Below are positions 29,467 through 41,544 of a DNA stretch of 64,000 bases, in pieces; the stretch's first letter is position 1, and each line of letters begins with the position of its first letter. Made by a program: the position numbers and the translations under genes. The stretch comes from Mobula hypostoma. Its lineage: Eukaryota. The notes under the pieces were generated by a model. The model did no database searches and had not been told where the DNA came from. It saw nothing but the letters and a program-made list of their open reading frames with translations. Location: contig NC_086097.1 in the NCBI RefSeq assembly GCF_963921235.1, forward strand, positions 51,834,001 through 51,898,000. Direction: 5' to 3'.

Positions 29467-29711
29467 TGTTATGTTTTGTAACTTCAAAGCATTAAACTAA
29501 TTCAAAGGAAGTCACAGGAGCTGGGAATGTGGGTCTAACTTTGTGTTTACTTTAAGTGAAGCACGCACGTAACATGTGGTAGCATGATGATGTATTTATA
29601 CATTTGGATTATTCAAATGAACAAGGCATTATATAAACAACAAAGAATGTTTAATCAACCAGCATATATACAAAATTACTCAAATATAACTGAAATATTA
29701 AATACACAACA
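29467..29711 (-). repeat. 3' LTR
   Basis: Aligns with 31991-32244 (CATTAAACTAATTCAAAGGAAG ... AACTGAAATATTAAATACACAACA). Confidence 0.9.
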
Positions 29712-29975
29712 CTCCTCCCTGCTTAGCTCATATATTGTGCAACTACTACATACAGACATCTACGGTTTAGTAAATTATTTTAGTTGTCCCATTCAGGCCT
29801 AAAGATTTAATCGCTGTGGAGGATTTCTTACTGTTGAGGGGTAACGTCTTTCGTGACAAGGGGGATCACTCTGCTCTGCAGGTGAGACTTGTGGCCGTGA
29901 AACAATCTCAGGTTCTGGGTGGCTGGAGGAGTTAACTGAGACTGCAGGAAACGCTTCTGATAGAGGTTAGCCACC

Positions 29976-30443
29976 TTTTTTCTTCTAGTTTGTGCATCTT
30001 GATCTTGGGAAGATGCATTTAATTCACTGGAGTACTCTCTTATTAATCCTTCCATTGCTTCCTTTATGATCTGATCTCTCCCCTTAGTTTCCTCAGCCAC
30101 AATATCATCTGATGAATTGTCTTCGGTCTTTGCAGCTACTTTTACAAGCAGTGTTTTGTTTCCCACTTGAAGTCCATGCAATAACCTTAATGCACACAGA
30201 GTAGATTCTGGTTCTTTATACTCACAAAAGCCAACTTTCCTGAAGTTCCTTGAACTCACAGCTTAAAACCAAGCCACATTTCTCAAGTCACTGCCTGATT
30301 AATATTATCAAAAGCTTTCTCAGATATTTTGCCACAAAAACTGTTGTAGTCGGACCACTGCTTTCGCCAGTTTCATGATTTGTCTGAGCTGCATGGTTCT
30401 TCCTTGGTCCAATATGCTTTCCAACCAACACCAGCAACAGTTT
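29976..30443 (-). pseudogene. RBM25: Captured fragment of RNA-binding protein 25 (RRM region) with frameshifts and a stop
   Basis: VGKHIGPRK, SGPTTTVFV, ISEKA, KCGLVLS, GFCEYKEPESTLCALRLLH, LLVKVAAKT and LIREYSSELNA match vertebrate RBM25. Confidence 0.9.
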
Positions 30444-31050
30444 GTCCTCTGTTGGGCAATGGTTATGGTGATCAGCATGGAGGAAGTTGTTGGATCATCC
30501 AGTACTTTCCTTAGTTTGCTTTCGATTCACTTTATTATAGGGGATGTGGCATGCAGTTCACTTTATTATAGGCAGACAGATCTCCAATGAAGCTGTAGAT
30601 GTCTCAGTCAATGACGTCCCACAACAGCTTTTCCTGTTTTTACCACGTACAAGCTCAGTTTGGCTTGTTGGTTATTTCACTGTTATGAATGTCATTCCCA
30701 CAGGAGTTATATTTTCTCCAGTATAAGTTCTTGTTTGGATATCTGCCGGCTTCAGTTTGAAATGCCCCTCAAACTCATTTTGTGGAATGACTGAAACAGC
30801 TGGACCAGTGTCCAATTCCATTTTAATTACTTTGCCATTCACTTCTGGCATAAGCCATATTGCTTGTCTATTTTTAATTTTCACACTGTAAATCTTAAGG
30901 CTGTTCAGTCCTGTGTCACTCTCATCATTATCAGCTTTTTCATCAATAGCATGCAGATTAATCCTCTTTTGAAATTGCAACTTGACTTTTTAGCTTTTTC
31001 TCTTCCCTGAGCAGTCCGCTTATGTATTTTTATCTACCCGACACACTCTT

Positions 31051-31077
31051 TGTGTGTGTGTGTGTGTGTGTGTGTGT
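31051..31077. repeat. (TG)n microsatellite inside the gag zinc-knuckle region
   Basis: Direct reading. Confidence 0.95.
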
Positions 31078-31990
31078 CCTGCTTTGTCGTATTTACTACA
31101 AGTTTTGCATTTAAATCTGCATTGGTCTGGTGTATGTGAGCCCCTGCCACAATGATAACACAATTTGTACAGCCAAGCCAGTTTATGTTTAAATGTTGAG
31201 ATTTTGTTCACGCTCACTTTCATTCCTGACTGCAACCCAATTGCATCTTTGTCTGCGGTTTCCATTGAAACAGTGATATCAACTGATCTCTATAAATAGT
31301 GCTTCAGTTAGCCACCATTTTTGAATGCTTTCGCGTAAGGTTCCACAAACTAAACAATCTCTCAGTGTATCATAATGAACATAACTGAACTGACAATCCT
31401 TAGACAACTTCTTCAATTCAGTCACATACGCTAAAATGAACTCCCCTTTTAAAAATTCCATTTATGAAACCTAAAGCATTCTGAAGTCTACAATGACTTC
31501 AGTTCTCAATGTTCATGCATTACTTTGACAATATCAGTAAAGCTAATTTTGGATGGTTTGGCTGGAGCAATCAAACTTTGAAGCAAATTCTACACTTTTA
31601 AACCCAATGCACTTAGCAAAATTGGTACTTGTTTCTCATTGGCTATTTCAAAATATTGTTGAATTAGCTGAGTATGCATGAGCCAGTTACCTGCTGTATA
31701 ATAATATTTGTAAATCTTTTCGATGTAGCCAGCCATTTTTAAAATGATTATTATCACCGGGCACTCACTCTTTATGAACCCATGAATTCTGACTTCAGAA
31801 AAACTTGATCATGTCTTCCCTTTGAAGAACATGTGCTGTACTGCTTTTTCACAAAAAAACTCAATTGTCTCTGCACATCTTTGCTGGGCTGCGTTTTTAA
31901 CTCGCCTTTCTTTTAAGTTTGAACATCTCACTGTGCTTTCAACAGGTTGATATCCGTTTCAGTTTTGTTTTAAAAATAGCTTACCACCAA

Positions 31991-32244
31991 TGTTAAGCTT
32001 TGTTACTTAAAAACATTAAACTAATTCAAAGGAAGCCACAGGAGTTTGGGAATGTGGATCTAACTTCATATTTACTTTAAGCGAGGTGTATACGTCTCAC
32101 ATGACAGTGTGGTGAGGTATGTAATTCATGTATTTGTACATATAACCTGTAAAGGATTATTTAAACAAACAAGACTGCTTAATCAATCAATATATATACA
32201 TGATTACTCAAATACAGTATAACTGAAATATTAAATACACAACA
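31991..32244 (-). repeat. 5' LTR
   Basis: Direct repeat of 29467-29711, adjacent to the PBS-like sequence. Confidence 0.9.
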
Positions 32245-32414
32245 TGTAGTATGTAATGTTGGGGAAGGAAAGTGAAAACTGGGAACCAGAGTATGAACAT
32301 TTAAGAAATCTGAAATAAGAACAGAAAATGCTGGTAAAGCTCAGCTGGTCAGGAAGCATCTGTAGAAAGGGAACAGAGATGTTGTTTCATGTCAAGGAAT
32401 TTTCATTAGAACTA

Positions 32415-33300
32415 TTGGCCAATTAGTGTGACAGGAATATGCCAAAATCAATTATCAAGGAAGTAGTGACTTGGCTTTTAGAAAATCATAGGATTACATC
32501 TGATCATTGTGGATTTATGAAAGAGAAACTATGTTTGAGAAGTCTAAATTTTTTGATATTATAGTTAGCAAAACAAGTAAGACTAATGAGTTAATATATC
32601 ATATGTGGTCTTTTTAAAGGTCTTTATTAAGATTCTACACAAAAAGATTATTAACGTTAGAGTGTACATTATTGTGAGTAATATTCTACCATAGATTAAG
32701 TATTAATGAATAGAAAGCAGGGTGGGAATGCTTGGTAATTTTGAAGTCTTCATTGTATGTGTTCAAGATTAGAGACATCTTTCTCCAATTATTTAAAACT
32801 CTTATTATGACCAGATGTTGTCTAACTTGCTCGAGGAAGGATGTGATTGCTATTGAGGAAGTGCAGGAAAAGTTCACCAGTCTGATTACTGGAGGTGACA
32901 TATATGTTGTATGGAAGAGTTAAGAAGGCTCAGCCTATAGTCTCCTGAATTTGGAAGAATGAATGATCTTCTCATTGAAATGTACAAAATTCTTCAGGAG
33001 CTCAACAGGTTAGAAGCAAGGATGGTGTTTTAGCTAGGGTGTCAAGAAGCAGAGCTCACTGACTCAGTATCAGTGTTTTGTCTTTCAGGATTCAGACAGG
33101 AGGAAACCTTTTTACCTAGGAGGGCTGTAGAGGGGTTGTTCCTGAATTTATTCAAGATAGAGACTGATAGATTTTTAAAAAGTAAGGGATTAGAGGGATA
33201 CACAGTTAGTGCAGGAAATTGGTGCTGAATTAGAAGATCAAGCATGATCTAATTGAACGGTAGAGCAAGCATGAAGGAACAAATGCCCTAGTCTTCTGTT
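32415..33300 (+). mobile_element. Old CR1 RT and 3' fragments
   Basis: RKDVIAIEEVQEKFTSLI and CR1-like 3' UTR remnants. Confidence 0.6.
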
Positions 33301-34766: not shown

Positions 34767-36542
34767 AATGTTGAACTTCTGAATGTAGCCTCTTATGTAA
34801 TGCAGTAAGTAATTCCTGTAGTAAAATCCCACAGGCAGTGATGTGATAATGACCGGATACTCTTCTCAAATGATATTGGTTAAAAGGTAACTGTCTGGGC
34901 ACTTGGGAAAATGGGTTTATGCTAAGTAGGATCATTACATCTTCTACATCTGTTAGTAGGACATACAGTACGGGACCATTGTCTCCCATCCCATCTACAG
35001 GAATTCACCTCTGTCCCTCTTTCTACTCCATTCTAATATTTTGGAGTTTTCACCCAGGTCTTTCGCTCCACTCTCTCAAGAAGGGTTTACAACTACACAG
35101 CTGTTTTGTAGTGTGAGTGCTACCATGAAATCATGACCAAACCAGCTAAATTATGTGAAAATGGAAATTTTTGTCTGAGGTGGCTCAAGTGATACAAGTC
35201 TGCTGAGAAAGCTTGATGCTAGCATGCATAAGGTACAGCAACCCTCGTGCAGCTCGATCATAACTTGCGTGGTGAGTTTAACGCTTTGCAGCTGTAGATC
35301 CAGGCTATTTCTCACTCTGCTGCTTCACTTCAATGTAAGGTTTCCATTGAAAAGCACGTGTAAGAAGGTGAGAAAATATGGCTGGCATTCAGACTTGTCT
35401 TCAGAATAGGCCAAATGTTTATCTGCAGATCTTCTATGGCACACTATAATGATGACAATGCATACTGGCGTAGTGCCCCTTATGCATTGCGGTGAGAGAA
35501 AAAATGTGCAGTATTTTATGTACTTTGTGTCACAAAAGAGATTTTGATGAAATAATGCAGGAATACGGATGGTTTATTGCAACACCCTCACTAGTTGGGA
35601 TATAATGTGAAGCACAATAATTATTAATGTATAGGGACTGCTTTTGGTGGTGGGAGGTGGGGGGGAGCTGTTTAGAAATATAAAAAGCACATGAGCATCA
35701 CATAATATTTCATATGTTCATTTATATTTATATTTTATAGAGAAATGATCGATCAGTCCAAATAAATTATACTTGTAATAATTCCAATCATTTGTTATTT
35801 AGATGTTCAAATACTTTTCATCGAATCCTTTTCAACTATGTATTGTAGAAATTATGTTTGTATCCACTAATGATGATGGGGGTGGGAGTGTATTTGCTGA
35901 TGCAGTAATAAAGATCTACCAGTAAGACTGAGTGAGCACTAATAGAAAGCACATTCTTCTGAAAATCTTCCAGTTTTACAAAGGCCCTTTGTTGGTTGTT
36001 TTCATGTTAAAAGAACAGATGTTAAAATAAGATGATAATAGAGAACAGATTTAGATAACAATCTTAAATGAAAAGGAACATTGTTTCAAACATAAACCTG
36101 TAACAATGTTTATTAGGTTCATTGAGCTATATGCATTGAAAATAATGGAGACTGTTCATTCCATCATGAGCATGCTGCCGTCTAAAGAACTATCCGACCT
36201 AAAGCAATGCTGAAGACGGGCCTCAGCTCAAAACGTTGACTGTTTACTCTTTTCCCATAGATGCTGTCTGACCTTCTGAGTTTCTCTGGCATTATGTGTG
36301 TGTTGCTTTGTTCCTAGTTTGGTCCTGGACAACCATGTGTGTATTATTTTTAAGTGTATCAGGGATTTTTGCCTGCACCGATTTCTAACTAGAAATAAAT
36401 TTCCTCAATTCCTTTTCACCTCAATTACTTGAATTCCGTGCTCAATTCTGCAAGGGGAACATTGACTCCAGAGGGCCAGTGTCTTTAAGTTAGTAAACTG
36501 AGGCATAGCAAGGTTCTTCAGTTCCGGCAAACATGAATCTTG

Positions 36543-36680
36543 TGCAAACGACAGGAATTCTGCAGATGCTGGAAATTCAAGCAACACACATCAAAGTTTC
36601 TGGTGAACGCAGCAGGCCAGGCAGCATCTCTAGGAAGAGGTGCAGTCGACGTTTCAGGCCGAGACCCTTCGTCAGGGCCA
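36543..36680 (-). mobile_element. Solo Penelope pLTR
   Basis: Reverse complement closely matches 49757-49856 (AGAGATGCTGCCTGGCCTGCTG...). Confidence 0.8.
36643..36680 (-). ncRNA. Minimal type-I hammerhead ribozyme motif, catalytic core intact
   Basis: Minus strand: TGGCC-CTGACGA-AGG(GTCTCGG)CCT-GAAAC-GTC-GACTG. Shows the CUGANGA core, stem II, GAAA, palindromic ACGU stem III and a GUC site. Confidence 0.65.
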
Positions 36681-37029
36681 CGGTGCTGTTCCTGGCCCAC
36701 AATGTTTGCAGAAACTGTCTTCAGCTGAAGCCCTCAAGCTGCAAGTTTTCGATTTTGAGTAATGTCTGTGCATCAGGAAGTGAGCACCGCACAATTTAAA
36801 TGTGTAGGACCATAGAACATTACAGCACAGAAACAGGCCTTTTGGCCCTTCTTCGCTGTGCCGAACCATTTTTCTGCCTCGTCCCACTGACTGTGTGCAA
36901 AGAGAGGACTGGAACAGCAGGCAGAAGGCGGAGAGGGGTTATGAATTACTGTATCTTACTCTTCAGTTGGTATTCAGCATTGAATATTGGTGAGGGTGAG
37001 TTCCTCTTGGAAATACAGCTGGACTCATG

Positions 37030-39930
37030 ACACTAGAACAGTAAATGCTTTAGCTGTTCAGTTGGGGGTTGTTGGGGAGAGGAGCCATTTGGGAGGATGG
37101 GAGGCAGATTAGATGGGTGTATGTAGTTGTAATAGAGCTGGCAAAATTGTGATTCCATGGTGCTTTCCTGGTTTTGGTTAACTATGTCACTGAGTTGGGA
37201 CAAGCTAAGACAATCAGCCAGCGCTCGTGGTCAGTATTTGAACTGATAACAGTGAGCTGGAAAAGAGATTAAAAAACAAGGAATCCAATGTAGAAAACCC
37301 TGAACTGGTCCTGGTGCAGAGCACTGATGAGTGGAGAAATAAAATCATGCATTTCAACATATGACTGAAGAGTTGATGCAGGAGGGATGTCTTGGGTTAT
37401 TGGGATGGTTCTTTGTGACCTGCATTAGTGATAGGGCCACATTTCACAGGTTTGCGGGTACTCGAGGTGAGATGTTACTCTGCCCTGGCAGGGGAAAAAC
37501 CCCCAGAACATTTTCAGGAAGCAAAAAGATCAAGTTAGGTTGGAAGGTAACAAAGCCAGGTAAGCAAACTTGGAAGGCTGAGGAAGCAAGCCCGGAAAAA
37601 AAACCCAGCAAAGTTTTTCGGTGTGTTGTGCTAAAGGCCAGGAAATGAGGCTGATGAACTGAGGCCGTAAGTATGCATGGGGAAGAATGAATATCATGTC
37701 TGCTATGGGGATGTAGCTTAATCAAGAGCAGCAGGGCTGATCATTCCCAGATTCACTGTTTTCAAAGAAGGCAAAAGGGAATAAAATGTAGGGGAAGTGT
37801 TGCAATATTGGGCAACAAAGTAATTTCAGCTATGAGTGGGATTTACTTGCCAGAAAACTCAACAAAGCCGGCTTCATGGGTTGAAATGAAGGACAAACAG
37901 AGAGCAATTACATTCAGCAAATGCATGATAACTCCTAATGTTACTGAGAGAAATATATAAACATGTTGATGGCAAATGGAAAAAAAACATTGTTCACCAC
38001 TGTGTCACAAACCTAACAAGGTGGGAGGGGGGAACAGACAGAGAGAAAAAACAGAAACATGCTGGGAACACCCAGCAAGCTGGACTACATCTGTGAGAAG
38101 AAAAGGAGAGTTAACATTTTGAATTGGAAACCCTTTGTCAGAACTGGGGGTGTTGGTGGGGTGGCGGAGGGATATCTCTGATAGAGTAGAACGGGGATGG
38201 CCATAGGGATAGGCTTTAATAAAGATTTTCTGGTCAATGACTGAATGGGAGCAGTTAGAGAAAACGGAGACAAAACAAGACAGATAAAAGAGTAGGGGAG
38301 GTGTGAAATGCAGAGCAGGAAAACATGACTGACACGTGCTTCATTCCCACAGAGCCATCCCACTCTGACTCAGGCCTATTGGTTTCTGGCTTCCTGTACT
38401 GTTACAACTAGGCCTAATACCAGCTTGAGGAACAGCACCTCTTATTCCACCTGGTTTACTCTCGAAGCCTTCCCCATGAGTGGGTATTGCTGCAAGGCAG
38501 CAGGGGTTTGAGATCGGGGTTTTCCTTCTCCTCGATGAGCTGCCAATCACGGCTGATGAGTCCCGTCAGCCTTTGTCCCTTCTGGAAATAGAGCGGTCAG
38601 CAGAACAGTTCTGCCGGGCTTAGTCGCTAAGCCACATGTGTAGGCCTGGAGCTGGATGAGGTTTTCAGAGGCTGTTTGAGATGCATGCCATTGGGAACAT
38701 TTATTAGGTAGTGGGAGTTTATACCCACTACCACCCCTGGCCATGACAATCTTAAGGAACCAACGACCAATTAAGCCATTGAACGGTATGTCTTTAGACT
38801 TGTCTATGTCCCCACTCTCTAACTTCTCCCATTCATTCATTGAACAGATAACCTTGTTTATGGCTTTGTCTCCCATGGTCATCCTGTTTTACCCCATCAG
38901 AGACATCGCTCTTTCTTCCACCTCCCTGCAGATAAACAAGCTTCTTTTCGGTCTCTGACCCGTAACATTAACTCTTTTAATCTTCTCACAGATGCTTTTG
39001 ACCAGCTGAGTACTTCTAGAATTTTCTGTTTTCTTAGATATCCAGCATTTGCAGTATTCTCCCCCCACCCAGATTTTCAGTTCTAGACAGTGGGCAGATG
39101 GTAGGAGTATTATTTAGGTGATGGAGAAATAATTCATTTAGACTTGATAGCAAGTCTCGGCTTTAAAGTTGTCAACTGGGACATTCATTTAGCTCCAAAG
39201 AAATAATTTAGTAAAATTGGGCTGATGACAATGATAAACCCGTGTCAGAATGACAGAATTATTCAACGGGTTAGATTCAAAATGGGTGGTTGAACTTGAA
39301 TTCACAAAAGATGGTTTGAACGGTCAAATCTGAACCCCTCTGGGTATTGGGAAATATGTGCAGCAGTTAAAAGGCAAAAAAAACCACATGAACCCTGAGT
39401 CAAGTGCTGAGAGTCCAGCATGTCAGAAAGCCTTGGAGGCCTTGAAAAGTGGCATTAAAAATAATTTAGGAAGAGGAAAAGTGCATTGCAAGTCTTGTTA
39501 AATAAAATCAAGAAAAACTCAAAGGTGTCTTGTAAATAATGACCAAGGACAGAATAGGCCCTTTTAGAGATCAAAGCAATAACTTTTATACAGAAGAAGA
39601 TACGGGTTTGCTTCTCAAGGAATGCATATTTTCAGCCTTCACATAAAGGGAGAATAAGGGTACTTTAGTTAAGGAGGAAGACTGCAAAATATTAAATAGG
39701 GTAAACGTAATTAAAACAGTTAAAGGATGTTTTCTTGAAATGAGCTAAATTGAATAAACTCCCTGGTGATTAAAAGAAATCTTGGAAAAATCAGTCTGTG
39801 ACTTACATTTTTTTGACCTCTGGTTATAGACTGGAGAACTGCTGGTGTTGTTCTCTTGTTTACAAATGACAGCAGGACATACTGAGTAATTTTAGACTAG
39901 TCAGTCTGGCATTAGTGTTAGACAATCATT
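37030..39930 (+). mobile_element. Old degraded CR1 (ORF1/endonuclease/linker), interrupted at ~38040-39060 by Penelope and RTE-related pieces
   Basis: Scattered CR1-like remnants (for example GACTGGAGAACTGCTGGTGTTGTTCTCTTGTTTACAAA, DWRTAxVVxLF). Confidence 0.45.
38455..38760 (-). mobile_element. Non-coding, hairpin-rich repeat resembling an RTE 5'UTR-derived SINE
   Basis: Minus strand GGCAGCTCATCGAGGAGAAGGAAAACCCCGATCTCAAACC; several local hairpins. Confidence 0.4.
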
Positions 39931-41544
39931 AACGTTCATATCCGCTTCTTAGTATCTGATGTAAATTTCCTTTTTCAACCTTTGCTTATCCTGTATGGTC
40001 CAAGATATCCAAAGGAGTTCCAGACTTGGGAGTGAAATCTGTTATTGTTTGATTCTGCATGCTTTGGCCTTACGTCGTTTCCTCCTTGTGTTATGCCAAT
40101 GCTTTGACATTGGTTTACTTTCAAATAACTTTGTAGCTCAGTAAAAGTGGTGCAAGATCTGTGAGTGTTGGAAATGCTAAGCTAAAACAGAAAATGCTGT
40201 TTTCTGAGATCTCTCTCTCTCTCTCACGATTAGTGAGAGCCACGAGGAAGGTGTTGAAGGTCAGTCTGCCAAATCACAGAACACTGTTCTTGTCAATAGG
40301 TCTAATGGCAATGGTACAGTGCATTCATGTTGACTGGCCCGCTGAGCAGGTTGTGCTTGAGTGCAGTGGAAAACCCTGAGACTGTCATTGTTATAGATCC
40401 TAGGAAGATAAGAGACTGGAAGGAAGGGTCTATAGTTTCATATAAGGACTCCTGGCCTAATAAATTGTCACAGAGCCAGGAAATGAAGAGTTCAGCATTG
40501 TTAAGAAGGTATAGAGACTTGAAACTGGGGTTTATGCTTAAGGTTGATAGTTTGGAATGAGATCAAATGTGACAGTGAAAATACGGCTGGACTGGCAACA
40601 AGGATGAAGGGTGGGGTGGAGGAAAGTGAAATGGCGAAATGATGTGGAGGACAAATTCAGGAGCTGATGGAGGATGCCATATTTGAAACAAAGTGGAAGT
40701 CTTTTTGTTGAAAATATTCACAGTAAAAGCAGCTTTTCTTTAATTGAAGGTTTTATCATGATAAATTGTTGTTCTGTACCCTATTGTCACTAAATCTAAC
40801 TAAATGATGAATAATGCAGCCGAAGTATACTCCCATTGATGTTATTTCTACCTTCATAGCTTTATATTGACCCTGAATTTGCCCTTTGCTTGCTACATAC
40901 CAAATGCAATGTTCCCAATGAATGGTACAATAGTGCTTTAGAAACTAGTTCGTCTTTATCTTTGGGAGCTTGGTTGTGAAAGTCTGCTATTGCACACTTT
41001 GTGGTACAGCTGTGTGTCAATAACGGCATGCAGAACCACATACAGAATTGAAAGGATGAATCTTTCTGATGTTTGATTGCATCTTTAACAATCAATACAT
41101 AACTTGTGAAGAAGAAGCTTACCTACTGATTGAAGCTATTGCCACTGTAATAAATTAATGTCAAATCCATTCACCTGACAAAATACTGGCAGACAGATCA
41201 GGGCACGGCCATTTGCCTTCTCCAAACACACTTGACAAACATCCTAAGAGAAGCTAAAACTGGATTAGTAAATAAAAGTTCCTGCGGAAAGGAAGTGGTG
41301 CTCCCTAGGTCACTAAGTCAAACATTCCACAGCTACTCACTATGGTGGAGGGTTTCCACCTGAAACATTGATTGTTCATTCCCCTCCATAGATGCTGCCT
41401 GACCTGTTGAGTTCCTCCAGCATTTTGTGTGTGTTGCTTAAGATTTCCATCATCTGCAGAATCTCTTGTGCACTCAGTAGACTGGATTTTATCTGTGCAG
41501 TGTGCTCTGACTGAGCAGCAATGGTGGTGATCGATAACATAGTT

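What the first reader, a model, noticed from the sequence alone, without database searches (positions are those of the whole stretch)
29467..32244. Gypsy LTR element that has captured a host splicing-factor (RBM25) mRNA fragment in place of pol
Seen: two LTRs, PBS-like site, PPT, gag knuckle, protease and the extreme pol C-terminus. About 470 bp of RBM25 coding sequence (whole RRM and downstream helix) sits exactly where RT/RNaseH/integrase should be, in the element's sense orientation. Known: RBM25 is a multi-exon spliceosome-associated gene, and LTR elements can capture co-packaged mRNA by template switching, as in retroviral oncogene transduction. This is rarely described for vertebrate Gypsy elements. 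Inference: the fragment is continuous, so the capture was RNA-mediated. The chimera keeps its cis signals, so it may have been amplified as a non-autonomous family that spread RBM25 pieces. This copy is old: the LTRs have diverged, the insert has frameshifts and a ~20-aa deletion after VAAKT, and no TSD is preserved.
Basis: partly seen in the sequence, partly recalled or inferred. Interest (0 to 1): 0.82.

Follow-up and report, generated by a model that had tools for sequence, protein, structure and literature searches.

The report
Jumping-gene family carrying RBM25 cDNA
This is one old, dead copy of a Gypsy-type jumping gene whose copying enzymes are replaced by an intron-free piece of the host splicing-factor gene RBM25, a hybrid that was likely made by the copying enzyme hopping between templates and that stands in well over a thousand places in this genome.

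Summary
On the minus strand, 29467-32244 is a 2.8-kb LTR element: two LTRs (K2P 0.244), a PBS-like site, gag with a CCHC knuckle, a protease with DTG, about 510 bp of RBM25 cDNA, the last ~55 codons of pol, a PPT.

The cargo matches exons of this genome's own RBM25 gene at 84-89% DNA identity, without introns. It includes a 48-nt cassette exon.

The whole chimera is a family. The 5' junction 20-mer occurs 1194 times (reversed control 0). Forty sampled copies fall into long, medium and short cargo variants; the window's is short, with a private ~57-nt deletion.

New here: I found the autonomous parent lineage (RT, integrase, same pol tail and LTRs; Ty3/Gypsy-like). Both breakpoints lie in microhomologies with RBM25 mRNA, TGCCACA (7 nt) and GAGAAGAAA (9 nt). 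This supports two template switches, as in LTR-mediated retroposition (Tan et al. 2016). It refuted my own splice-donor idea.

The cargo evolved neutrally. The insertion is shared with at least one related organism.

This scan reported the same family at least 11 times on other DNA of this genome. It is a known kind of event on an unusually large scale for a vertebrate.

The parts
31991..32244 (-). 5' LTR (in element sense), TG...CA ends
   Evidence: Direct repeat with 29467-29711. K2P 0.244 over 244 nt.
31979..31990 (-). PBS-like site TTGGTGGTAAGC directly after the 5' LTR; the tRNA was not identified
   Evidence: Most of the 17 other copies printed show a similar TTGGTGA.GAGG-like motif.
31020..31808 (-). 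gag remnants, broken by frameshifts and stops; CCHC knuckle at 31160-31119; a (TG)n run at about 31043-31077
   Evidence: ORFs; motif coordinates. The gag of a family copy (L010) is 35-42% identical in protein to the gag of other Gypsy families of this genome.
30560..30989 (-). Aspartic protease, MELDTGPAVSV with DTG at 30812-30804
   Evidence: Pfam match is weak, E=0.015. Autonomous copies match this stretch at 73-76% DNA identity.
30495..30559 (-). Linker after the protease (...KLRKVLDDAT in better copies), the last stretch of element sequence before the cargo
   Evidence: Shared by family copies and autonomous copies up to the crossover.
30488..30494 (-). 5' crossover: 7-nt microhomology, TGCCACA in the family and mutated to TCCAACA in this copy
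   Evidence: Autonomous copies read GATGATGCCACAGCAGTGTTC. The RBM25 A'|A junction reads CCTGCCACAACT|GTCTCC.
29987..30487 (-). RBM25 cDNA: the end of exon A', cassette exon A (from 30484), then exons B, C, D and E, with no introns. It holds the RRM and the following helix. A private deletion of about 57 nt lies near 30118-30120.
   Evidence: DNA matches to C1:99832631-99819268, exon by exon, at 84-89%. Splice sites. Protein hits to RBM25.
29974..29986 (-). A/G-rich 3' junction. It holds remnants of exon E, of exon I and of the 9-nt crossover GAGAAGAAA, merged by the short-variant deletion.
29724..29973 (-). Element tail: the extreme C-terminus of pol (ends ...VRNPPQRLNL, 29831-29802) plus untranslated sequence
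   Evidence: Homologous to the stretch after the integrase in autonomous copies.
29712..29723 (-). Polypurine tract AGCAGGGAGGAG
   Evidence: Most of the 16 other copies printed keep it.
29467..29711 (-). 3' LTR

Best explanation
Window 29467-32244 (minus strand) is a decayed copy of a non-autonomous Ty3/Gypsy-type LTR retrotransposon family in which RT, RNase H and integrase are replaced by spliced RBM25 cDNA; the chimera was most likely formed once, by two microhomology-guided template switches of reverse transcriptase between the element's RNA and a co-packaged RBM25 mRNA, and was then likely copied in trans by the enzymes of its autonomous parent lineage. Shown directly: the anatomy; the spliced origin from this genome's RBM25 gene; identical breakpoints in more than a thousand copies; an autonomous lineage with the same gag-protease, pol tail and LTRs; a 7-nt and a 9-nt microhomology exactly at the two breakpoints; neutral decay of the cargo. 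Inferred: co-packaging, the order of the two switches, mobilisation in trans, and that the short and medium cargo variants arose from the long one by internal deletions in A/G-rich sequence.
For: Spliced origin: the cargo aligns to RBM25 exons that lie about 13 kb apart in the gene and are contiguous in the element, at 84-89% identity. Its 5' end also carries the last nucleotides of exon A'. A single alignment spans the four internal exon junctions in 66, 65, 64 and 58 of 70 copies.

Family: 29 of 29 loci found with the cargo share homology across the 5' junction, and 18 of 29 run on through the window's 3' junction. The junction 20-mer gives 615+579 matches against 0+0 for the reversed control. 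All 40 sampled copies have protease homology upstream. They split into 7 long, 10 medium, 11 short and 12 truncated.

Parent lineage: copies that run from the same linker into RT, and copies with integrase followed by the same tail and LTR. Pfam gives RVT_1 E=4.3e-9 and rve E=3.4e-13, both above the curated cut-offs. The best named relatives are 'Gypsy retrotransposon integrase-like protein 1' / 'K02A2.6-like', at 63% identity and E=6e-101. Ty3 in the PDB matches at E=7e-7.

Microhomology: at the 5' side TGCCACA is exact in 16 of 30 autonomous-type loci and sits at the RBM25 A' end. At the 3' side GAGAAGAAA is kept in 20 of 29 autonomous-type loci and in RBM25 exon I. Tan et al. 2016 report a median microsimilarity of 6 bp for such events (passages).

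Age: ten family LTR pairs have K2P 0.166-0.244. Copies differ from the parent exons by a median of 13.8%.
Against: No intact autonomous copy was seen, so mobilisation in trans rests on shared LTRs, PBS, PPT and tail only. The 3' microhomology lies in purine-rich, low-complexity sequence, where a 9-nt match is less surprising than in random sequence. I ran no simulation of chance microhomology. The three autonomous-type loci that first showed the 5' breakpoint were found with a pattern biased toward the family sequence. The unbiased sample shortened the microhomology from 8 to 7 nt. A single origin is inferred from shared breakpoints, not from a tree. No RNA evidence was obtained for exon A or for the family.
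Confidence: 0.87

Rival explanations
1. Read-through transduction of the retroviral-oncogene type. An element inserted upstream in RBM25 in the same orientation. A read-through transcript joined element and gene, by splicing or by a deletion. A single non-homologous recombination during reverse transcription then restored the 3' end.
For: At first the cargo seemed to begin exactly at the first base of a 48-nt exon, and it is in frame with gag-protease. The read-through model is the classical account of oncogene capture (Telesnitsky and Wolin 2016, PMC4997597, passage read).
Against: The apparent exon-boundary start dissolved. The bases before it (GCCACAACT) are the end of the preceding RBM25 exon A', so the 5' breakpoint lies inside spliced coding sequence, in a 7-nt match with the element. 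No element remnant in sense orientation was seen near the gene. The two family LTR hits 36-66 kb upstream are antisense. The SUDS3-carrying family breaks at a different position after the protease, so there is no shared donor site.
Confidence: 0.06
2. An ordinary LINE-made processed pseudogene of RBM25 landed inside a Gypsy element. A later deletion removed pol, and the result was then copied.
For: Nested insertions are common in this genome; many sampled copies are interrupted by other repeats.
Against: The cargo has no poly-A tract and no duplications flanking it. It ends inside coding exon I, or exon E in the short form. Both ends coincide with microhomologies to the element. Pol is replaced rather than interrupted.
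Confidence: 0.03
3. The cargo was kept because the in-frame Gag-protease-RBM25 (RRM) fusion protein helped the chimera to spread.
For: The protease-linker frame runs into the native RBM25 frame. Open frames of 150-179 aa still cross the junction in five decayed copies: L010, L017, L029, L016 and L023. Of the 21 differences from the host gene that are shared by at least 70% of copies, 19 are synonymous.
Against: Differences at intermediate frequency, which arose inside the family, are 7 synonymous to 15 non-synonymous (3 to 7 outside CpG). That is near the random expectation of 22% synonymous. After the 19 shared sites are set aside (my arithmetic's counts), decay is about even over the three codon positions. 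The synonymous excess among shared differences is what the host gene's own constrained drift since the capture would give. Variants that delete different parts of the cargo all multiplied. An in-frame join is expected by chance one time in three.
Confidence: 0.04

Closest known systems
LTR-mediated retrocopies that act as non-autonomous ('pseudo') LTR retrotransposons (Tan et al. 2016, Genome Res 26:1663, PMC5131818; abstract and passages read)
   Same: An intron-free partial mRNA replaces part of the internal ORFs of an LTR element. Microsimilarity sits at both switch points (7 and 9 nt here; their median is 6 bp, with examples of 5, 7 and 10 bp). There is no poly-A. The join with the parental gene is in frame. 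Further rounds of retroposition copied the whole chimera.
   Different: Scale and age. In the passages I read, secondary copies are few. This family has at least 1194 junction-bearing copies, is roughly 10-12% diverged per copy, and has split into cargo-length variants.
Bs1 of maize, an LTR element carrying pieces of three host genes (known to me only as described in Tan et al. 2016)
   Same: [quoted passage not shown]
   Different: Bs1 has 1-5 copies per Zea species according to that passage. It is a plant element with three parental genes.
Acute transforming retroviruses (capture of host oncogenes; Telesnitsky and Wolin 2016, PMC4997597, passage read)
   Same: Host coding sequence replaces replication genes, is fused in frame to gag, and the defective genome depends on a helper.
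   Different: No selection on the cargo is visible here. The 5' junction lies in a microhomology inside spliced mRNA, which does not call for read-through. The element is a germ-line Gypsy element, not an infectious retrovirus.
Sibling cargo-carrying Gypsy families of the same genome
   Same: The architecture is the same. The gag and protease of the SUDS3 family are 33-42% identical in protein to those of RBM25-family copies (L010, L014, L017, L023).
   Different: They have different backbones, with no DNA similarity to the RBM25 family. The SUDS3 family breaks about 11 residues after the protease LDW motif and starts a few codons before the SUDS3 start codon.

Membership tests
Ty3/Gypsy LTR retrotransposon (the lineage as a whole) | LTRs with TG...CA ends, a PBS next to the 5' LTR and a PPT next to the 3' LTR | tested here: met
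   The tRNA primer was not identified.
Ty3/Gypsy LTR retrotransposon (the lineage as a whole) | Domain order gag - protease - RT - RNase H - integrase | tested here: met
   Pieced together from several decayed autonomous-type copies. Protease and linker run into RT. RVT_1 E=4.3e-9 and rve E=3.4e-13. Integrase runs into the tail and LTR. RT_RNaseH is only weak, E=6.5e-4, below the cut-off. No single copy shows the whole order.
Ty3/Gypsy LTR retrotransposon (the lineage as a whole) | RT or integrase groups with Ty3/Gypsy rather than with BEL, Copia or retroviruses | tested here: inconclusive
   No tree was built. The best named relatives are 'Gypsy retrotransposon integrase-like protein 1' / 'K02A2.6-like', and they carry RT_RNaseH_2 and Integrase_H2C2. 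In the PDB search the Ty3 polyprotein scores E=7e-7, about level with retroviral integrases.
Ty3/Gypsy LTR retrotransposon (this copy) | Carries its own RT, RNase H and integrase (autonomous) | tested here: not met
   Between the protease linker and the pol tail there is only RBM25 cDNA. The copy is non-autonomous.
LTR-mediated retrocopy (Tan et al. 2016) | An intron-free copy of a host mRNA lies inside a discontinuous LTR element and replaces internal sequence | tested here: met
LTR-mediated retrocopy (Tan et al. 2016) | Microsimilarity between element and mRNA at both switch points | tested here: met
   TGCCACA at the 5' side and GAGAAGAAA at the 3' side. Chance expectation was not simulated.
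LTR-mediated retrocopy (Tan et al. 2016) | No L1 hallmarks around the cargo (no poly-A tail, no TSD) | tested here: met
   The cargo ends inside coding exons, with no poly-A.
LTR-mediated retrocopy (Tan et al. 2016) | Transcribed together with the flanking LTR element | not testable with these tools
   No RNA holder was listed.
LINE-mediated processed pseudogene | A 3' poly-A tract and target-site duplications bound the retrocopy | tested here: not met
RBM25 (origin of the cargo) | Sequence identity with the species' own RBM25 gene over the RRM and the region after it | tested here: met
   84-89% DNA identity to exons at C1:99.81-99.84 Mb. 110 protein hits at E<=0.001, and most of the named ones are called RBM25 or RBM25-like.

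The most novel reading that the evidence does not exclude
The captured RNA-binding domain was not a passenger: the in-frame Gag-protease-RBM25 fusion bound the chimera's own RNA and gave it a packaging advantage over its autonomous parent, and that drove the burst to over a thousand copies. Rays would then hold a natural example of a retroelement that gained fitness from a stolen host RNA-binding module.
Probability: 0.05. Interest if true: 0.8.

Novelty: new member of a known kind. Interest (0 to 1): 0.45.

Why it matters
Capture of host mRNA by LTR retrotransposons is a known way of duplicating and shuffling exons. In animals it has been documented mostly as single or few-copy events. Here a captured piece of an essential splicing factor was multiplied to more than a thousand copies. 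It persisted across related species, and both template-switch points can still be read against the parent element.

The family matters in four practical ways:
- It spreads RRM-coding fragments through the genome, which can mislead gene prediction.
- It preserves a snapshot of an old RBM25 mRNA isoform that contained a 48-nt cassette exon.
- Together with the sibling families carrying SUDS3, myosin and SH3KBP1 that this scan noted, it suggests that Gypsy elements of this lineage captured host messages repeatedly.
- It is a useful natural data set for studying template switching and the success of non-autonomous elements.

Tried and rejected
1. Splice-donor idea (my own). The cargo seemed to start at the first base of exon A, so I suspected a read-through transcript spliced from a donor in the element. 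This was rejected once exon A' was found: the bases before exon A in the element are the end of A'. The SUDS3 family also breaks at another position.

2. Word-based protein search with the protease of copy L017, longer proteins: 240 candidates, none at E<=0.001.

3. The search of protein representatives was not accepting jobs, so no exhaustive profile search was run.

4. Pfam on very decayed autonomous copies gave only sub-threshold hits. Better ORFs were needed.

5. TSD search over sampled copies was inconclusive: 7 elements were delimited, the best case matched 4 of 5 bases, and the window copy was mis-delimited by the pattern. The window copy has no TSD.

6. The tRNA for the PBS was not identified.

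7. No RNA holder was listed among the sequencing runs. Expression of the family and use of exon A in present-day mRNA therefore remain untested.

8. DNA comparison with the loci of the other cargo families found only a shared (TG)n run. The myosin-family locus I fetched (L093) showed no gag or protease similarity; my coordinates for it may have been off.

9. One genome search used mistaken coordinates. It hit another part of the autonomous element and was repeated correctly.

10. Literature: RBM25 with Gypsy gave 1 irrelevant paper. RBM25 with retrotransposon, LTR or captured gave nothing relevant among the 15 listed. RBM25 with shark or elasmobranch terms gave 12 listed papers, none mentioning RBM25. 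I found no description in print in this library; Repbase and Dfam could not be consulted.
Full report
**Anatomy.** The feature lies on the minus strand. Read in element sense, it has these parts:
- A 254-nt LTR at 32244-31991.
- A PBS-like TTGGTGGTAAGC at 31990-31979.
- A frameshifted gag with the knuckle CYHCGRGSHTPDQC at 31160-31119.
- A protease with MELDTGPAVSV (DTG at 30812-30804).
- A short linker, then about 510 nt of RBM25-like sequence.
- About 250 nt ending in a pol-like C-terminus (...VRNPPQRLNL, 29831-29802).
- A polypurine tract at 29723-29712.
- The second LTR at 29711-29467.

The two LTRs differ at 20.5% of 244 aligned sites, K2P 0.244. Pfam sees only faint protease and RRM signals in this decayed copy. 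No target-site duplication is left.

**The cargo is RBM25, spliced, and from this genome.** A translated piece of the cargo finds 110 proteins at E<=0.001. Most of the named ones are called RBM25 or RBM25-like; the best is 61% identical.

The host gene lies at C1:99.79-99.84 Mb of the window's own assembly. At DNA level the cargo matches five separate exons, spread over about 13 kb, at 84-89% identity, and they are contiguous in the element. Each exon has canonical splice sites in the gene.

The first of these exons, which I call A, is 48 nt long. It is an in-frame cassette (VSMLYTMNRCPTEGKQ) between the canonical exon A' (...PMIPVPMGIMTPATT) and exon B. It is absent from the gar and Xenopus RBM25 proteins I fetched, and from ten partial RBM25 proteins of unnamed origin. 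It is present in a predicted shark isoform, P0001.

**The whole chimera is a family.**
- A DNA search with the cargo and its edges gave 3037 first-look candidates; 40 were scored, at 70-82% identity.
- All 29 fetched loci share homology across the 5' junction into protease and gag, and 18 of 29 run on through the window's 3' junction to the LTR.
- A 20-mer over the 5' junction, with up to 2 mismatches, occurs 615+579 = 1194 times. The reversed control occurs 0 times.
- That 20-mer lies within spliced RBM25 sequence, so it could in principle also match processed pseudogenes. However, all 40 copies sampled from the exact matches have the element's protease upstream: 39 next to the junction and one behind about 1.3 kb of inserted DNA.
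- A single alignment to the spliced host exons spans the four internal exon junctions in 66, 65, 64 and 58 of 70 copies.

**Cargo variants.** Of the 40 sampled copies:
- 7 carry a long cargo: exons A-E plus F, G/H and often I.
- 10 carry a medium one: exon E joined to the middle of exon G.
- 11 carry a short one: exon E joined to a few bases of exon I and then the element tail.
- 12 are truncated or interrupted.

The window's copy is short. Long copies mostly keep the host-like ...HP... codons in exon E, where short and medium ones are changed. I therefore infer that the long form is ancestral, and that the others arose by deletions between A/G-rich repeats. The window's ~57-nt gap after VAAKT spans the D/E junction and is not a family trait.

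**The parent element and the two breakpoints.** I first suspected a splice-mediated origin, because the cargo seemed to start at the first base of exon A. A pattern search for the linker not followed by exon A gave 20 hits. Among them are copies that continue ...LDDATSVF... into a reverse transcriptase. These share gag and protease with the family at 71-77% DNA identity.

Searches with the RT start and with the integrase C-terminus of such copies gave 2966 and 3045 first-look candidates. From the fetched loci:
- RVT_1 scores E=4.3e-9 and rve E=3.4e-13, both above Pfam's cut-offs.
- An integrase ORF finds 519 proteins at E<=1e-5. The best is 63% identical and is named 'K02A2.6-like' / 'Gypsy retrotransposon integrase-like protein 1'.
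- Ty3 is among the best solved-structure matches.
- In 27 of 30 loci the integrase region is followed by the same tail, the same LTR, or both.

The autonomous sequence at the 5' breakpoint is GATGATGCCACAGCAGTGTTCAAGG, as in L159 and L172; TGCCACA is exact in 16 of 30 loci. Spliced RBM25 reads ...ACTCCTGCCACAACT|GTCTCCATG across A'|A. The family reads GATGATGCCACAACTGTCTCCATG. The crossover therefore lies inside the shared TGCCACA, and the cargo includes the last bases of exon A'. My splice idea is refuted.

At the 3' side the three sequences are:
- Autonomous copies: ...TTAGAGAAGAAAGGTGTCCAGAGC...
- RBM25 exon I: ...AAAAGGAGAAGAAAAGGGATAGG...
- Long family copies: ...AAAAGGAGAAGAAAGGTGTCCAGAGC...

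The crossover lies in GAGAAGAAA, which 20 of 29 autonomous-type loci keep. Two switch points, each in a 7-9-nt match, are the signature of LTR-mediated retroposition described by Tan et al. 2016, who report a median of 6 bp (passages read).

**Is the cargo used?** The join is in frame, because the shared GCC ACA codons have the same phase in both templates. Open frames of 150-179 aa still cross it in five copies.

Of the 21 sites where at least 70% of 60 copies carry the same base differing from today's host exons, 19 are synonymous. A synonymous fraction of 0.218 is expected for random changes. But the changes at 30-70% frequency, which arose within the family, are 7 synonymous to 15 non-synonymous, or 3 to 7 outside CpG. 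Once the shared sites are set aside (my arithmetic's counts), decay is about even over the three codon positions.

The simplest reading is that the host gene drifted synonymously after the capture while the cargo decayed neutrally. I did not compute a synonymous rate for the host gene, so how long the capture preceded the burst remains open.

**Age and spread.** Ten family LTR pairs have K2P 0.166-0.244, median about 0.21. I dropped four other repeat pairs from that output because their coordinates are not family LTRs. I give no absolute date, since I have no substitution rate from any call.

Contigs of public runs from four coded organisms pile onto the element in tens of thousands; 36192 to 40432 were laid at 85% likeness or more.
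- In organism B, single contigs bridge both ends of this very insertion, with 1-2% differences in the flanks. The insertion therefore predates that split.
- In organisms C and D, flank contigs (about 8% different) reach 30 nt into the LTR. This suggests the same, but falls short of the tool's 31-nt criterion for a bridge.

**Comparison and verdict.** This is a member of a known kind: an LTR-mediated retrocopy turned non-autonomous LTR retrotransposon. In Tan et al. 2016 the known animal cases and maize Bs1 have few copies (passages read). This family is exceptional mainly in copy number, age and the legibility of its origin.

I found no paper on it in the held library. This scan has reported the same family at least 11 times elsewhere in this genome. 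It has also noted sibling families carrying SUDS3, myosin and SH3KBP1.

Of those siblings I checked the SUDS3 family. Its gag and protease are 33-42% identical in protein to those of RBM25-family copies (L010, L014, L017, L023). It has no DNA similarity to the RBM25 family, and it has a different breakpoint.

Noticed in passing
G000:C1:99832586-99832633 (locus L037/L089); window 30437-30484: RBM25 of this genome has an extra 48-nt in-frame cassette exon (VSMLYTMNRCPTEGKQ) between the canonical exon ending ...MTPATT and the exon starting VLVPTS. The captured mRNA contained it. So does a predicted shark isoform (P0001). The gar and Xenopus RBM25 proteins fetched, and ten partial RBM25 proteins of unnamed origin, lack it.
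   Followed up: partly
L090, L091, L094 (G000:C1:56.81, 31.76 and 73.97 Mb): Copies of a second cargo-carrying Gypsy family, with spliced SUDS3 directly after the protease. The join lies about 11 residues after the LDW motif and a few codons before the SUDS3 start codon. Its gag and protease are 33-42% identical in protein to those of RBM25-family copies (L010, L014, L017, L023). Earlier notes also list families carrying myosin and SH3KBP1.
   Followed up: partly
G000:C1:99876648-99876890 and 99906403-99906635: Two LTR-like matches of this family lie 36-66 kb upstream of the first coding exon of RBM25 that I located, in antisense orientation to the gene. This is probably chance, given the family's abundance.
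   Followed up: no
window 31043-31077: A (TG)n/(CA)n microsatellite sits inside the gag remnant of this copy, just after the zinc knuckles.
   Followed up: no
window 32245-32440: The DNA directly beside the 5' LTR is itself highly repeated: contig depth is in the thousands, against about 10-20 in the unique flanks. The element therefore abuts or sits in another repeat.
   Followed up: no
L116 (G000:C36:4395501-4405500), L127, L118/L119: The autonomous lineage has its own internally deleted derivatives. L116 and L127 join early RT to the integrase C-terminus within about 1-1.6 kb. L118 and L119 lack about 19 nt right at the linker/RT boundary.
   Followed up: partly
L080 (G000:C9:130770997-130775817): One family copy has pieces of RBM25 exons B and E repeated out of order before the normal B-E series. 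This is an internal rearrangement of the cargo.
   Followed up: no
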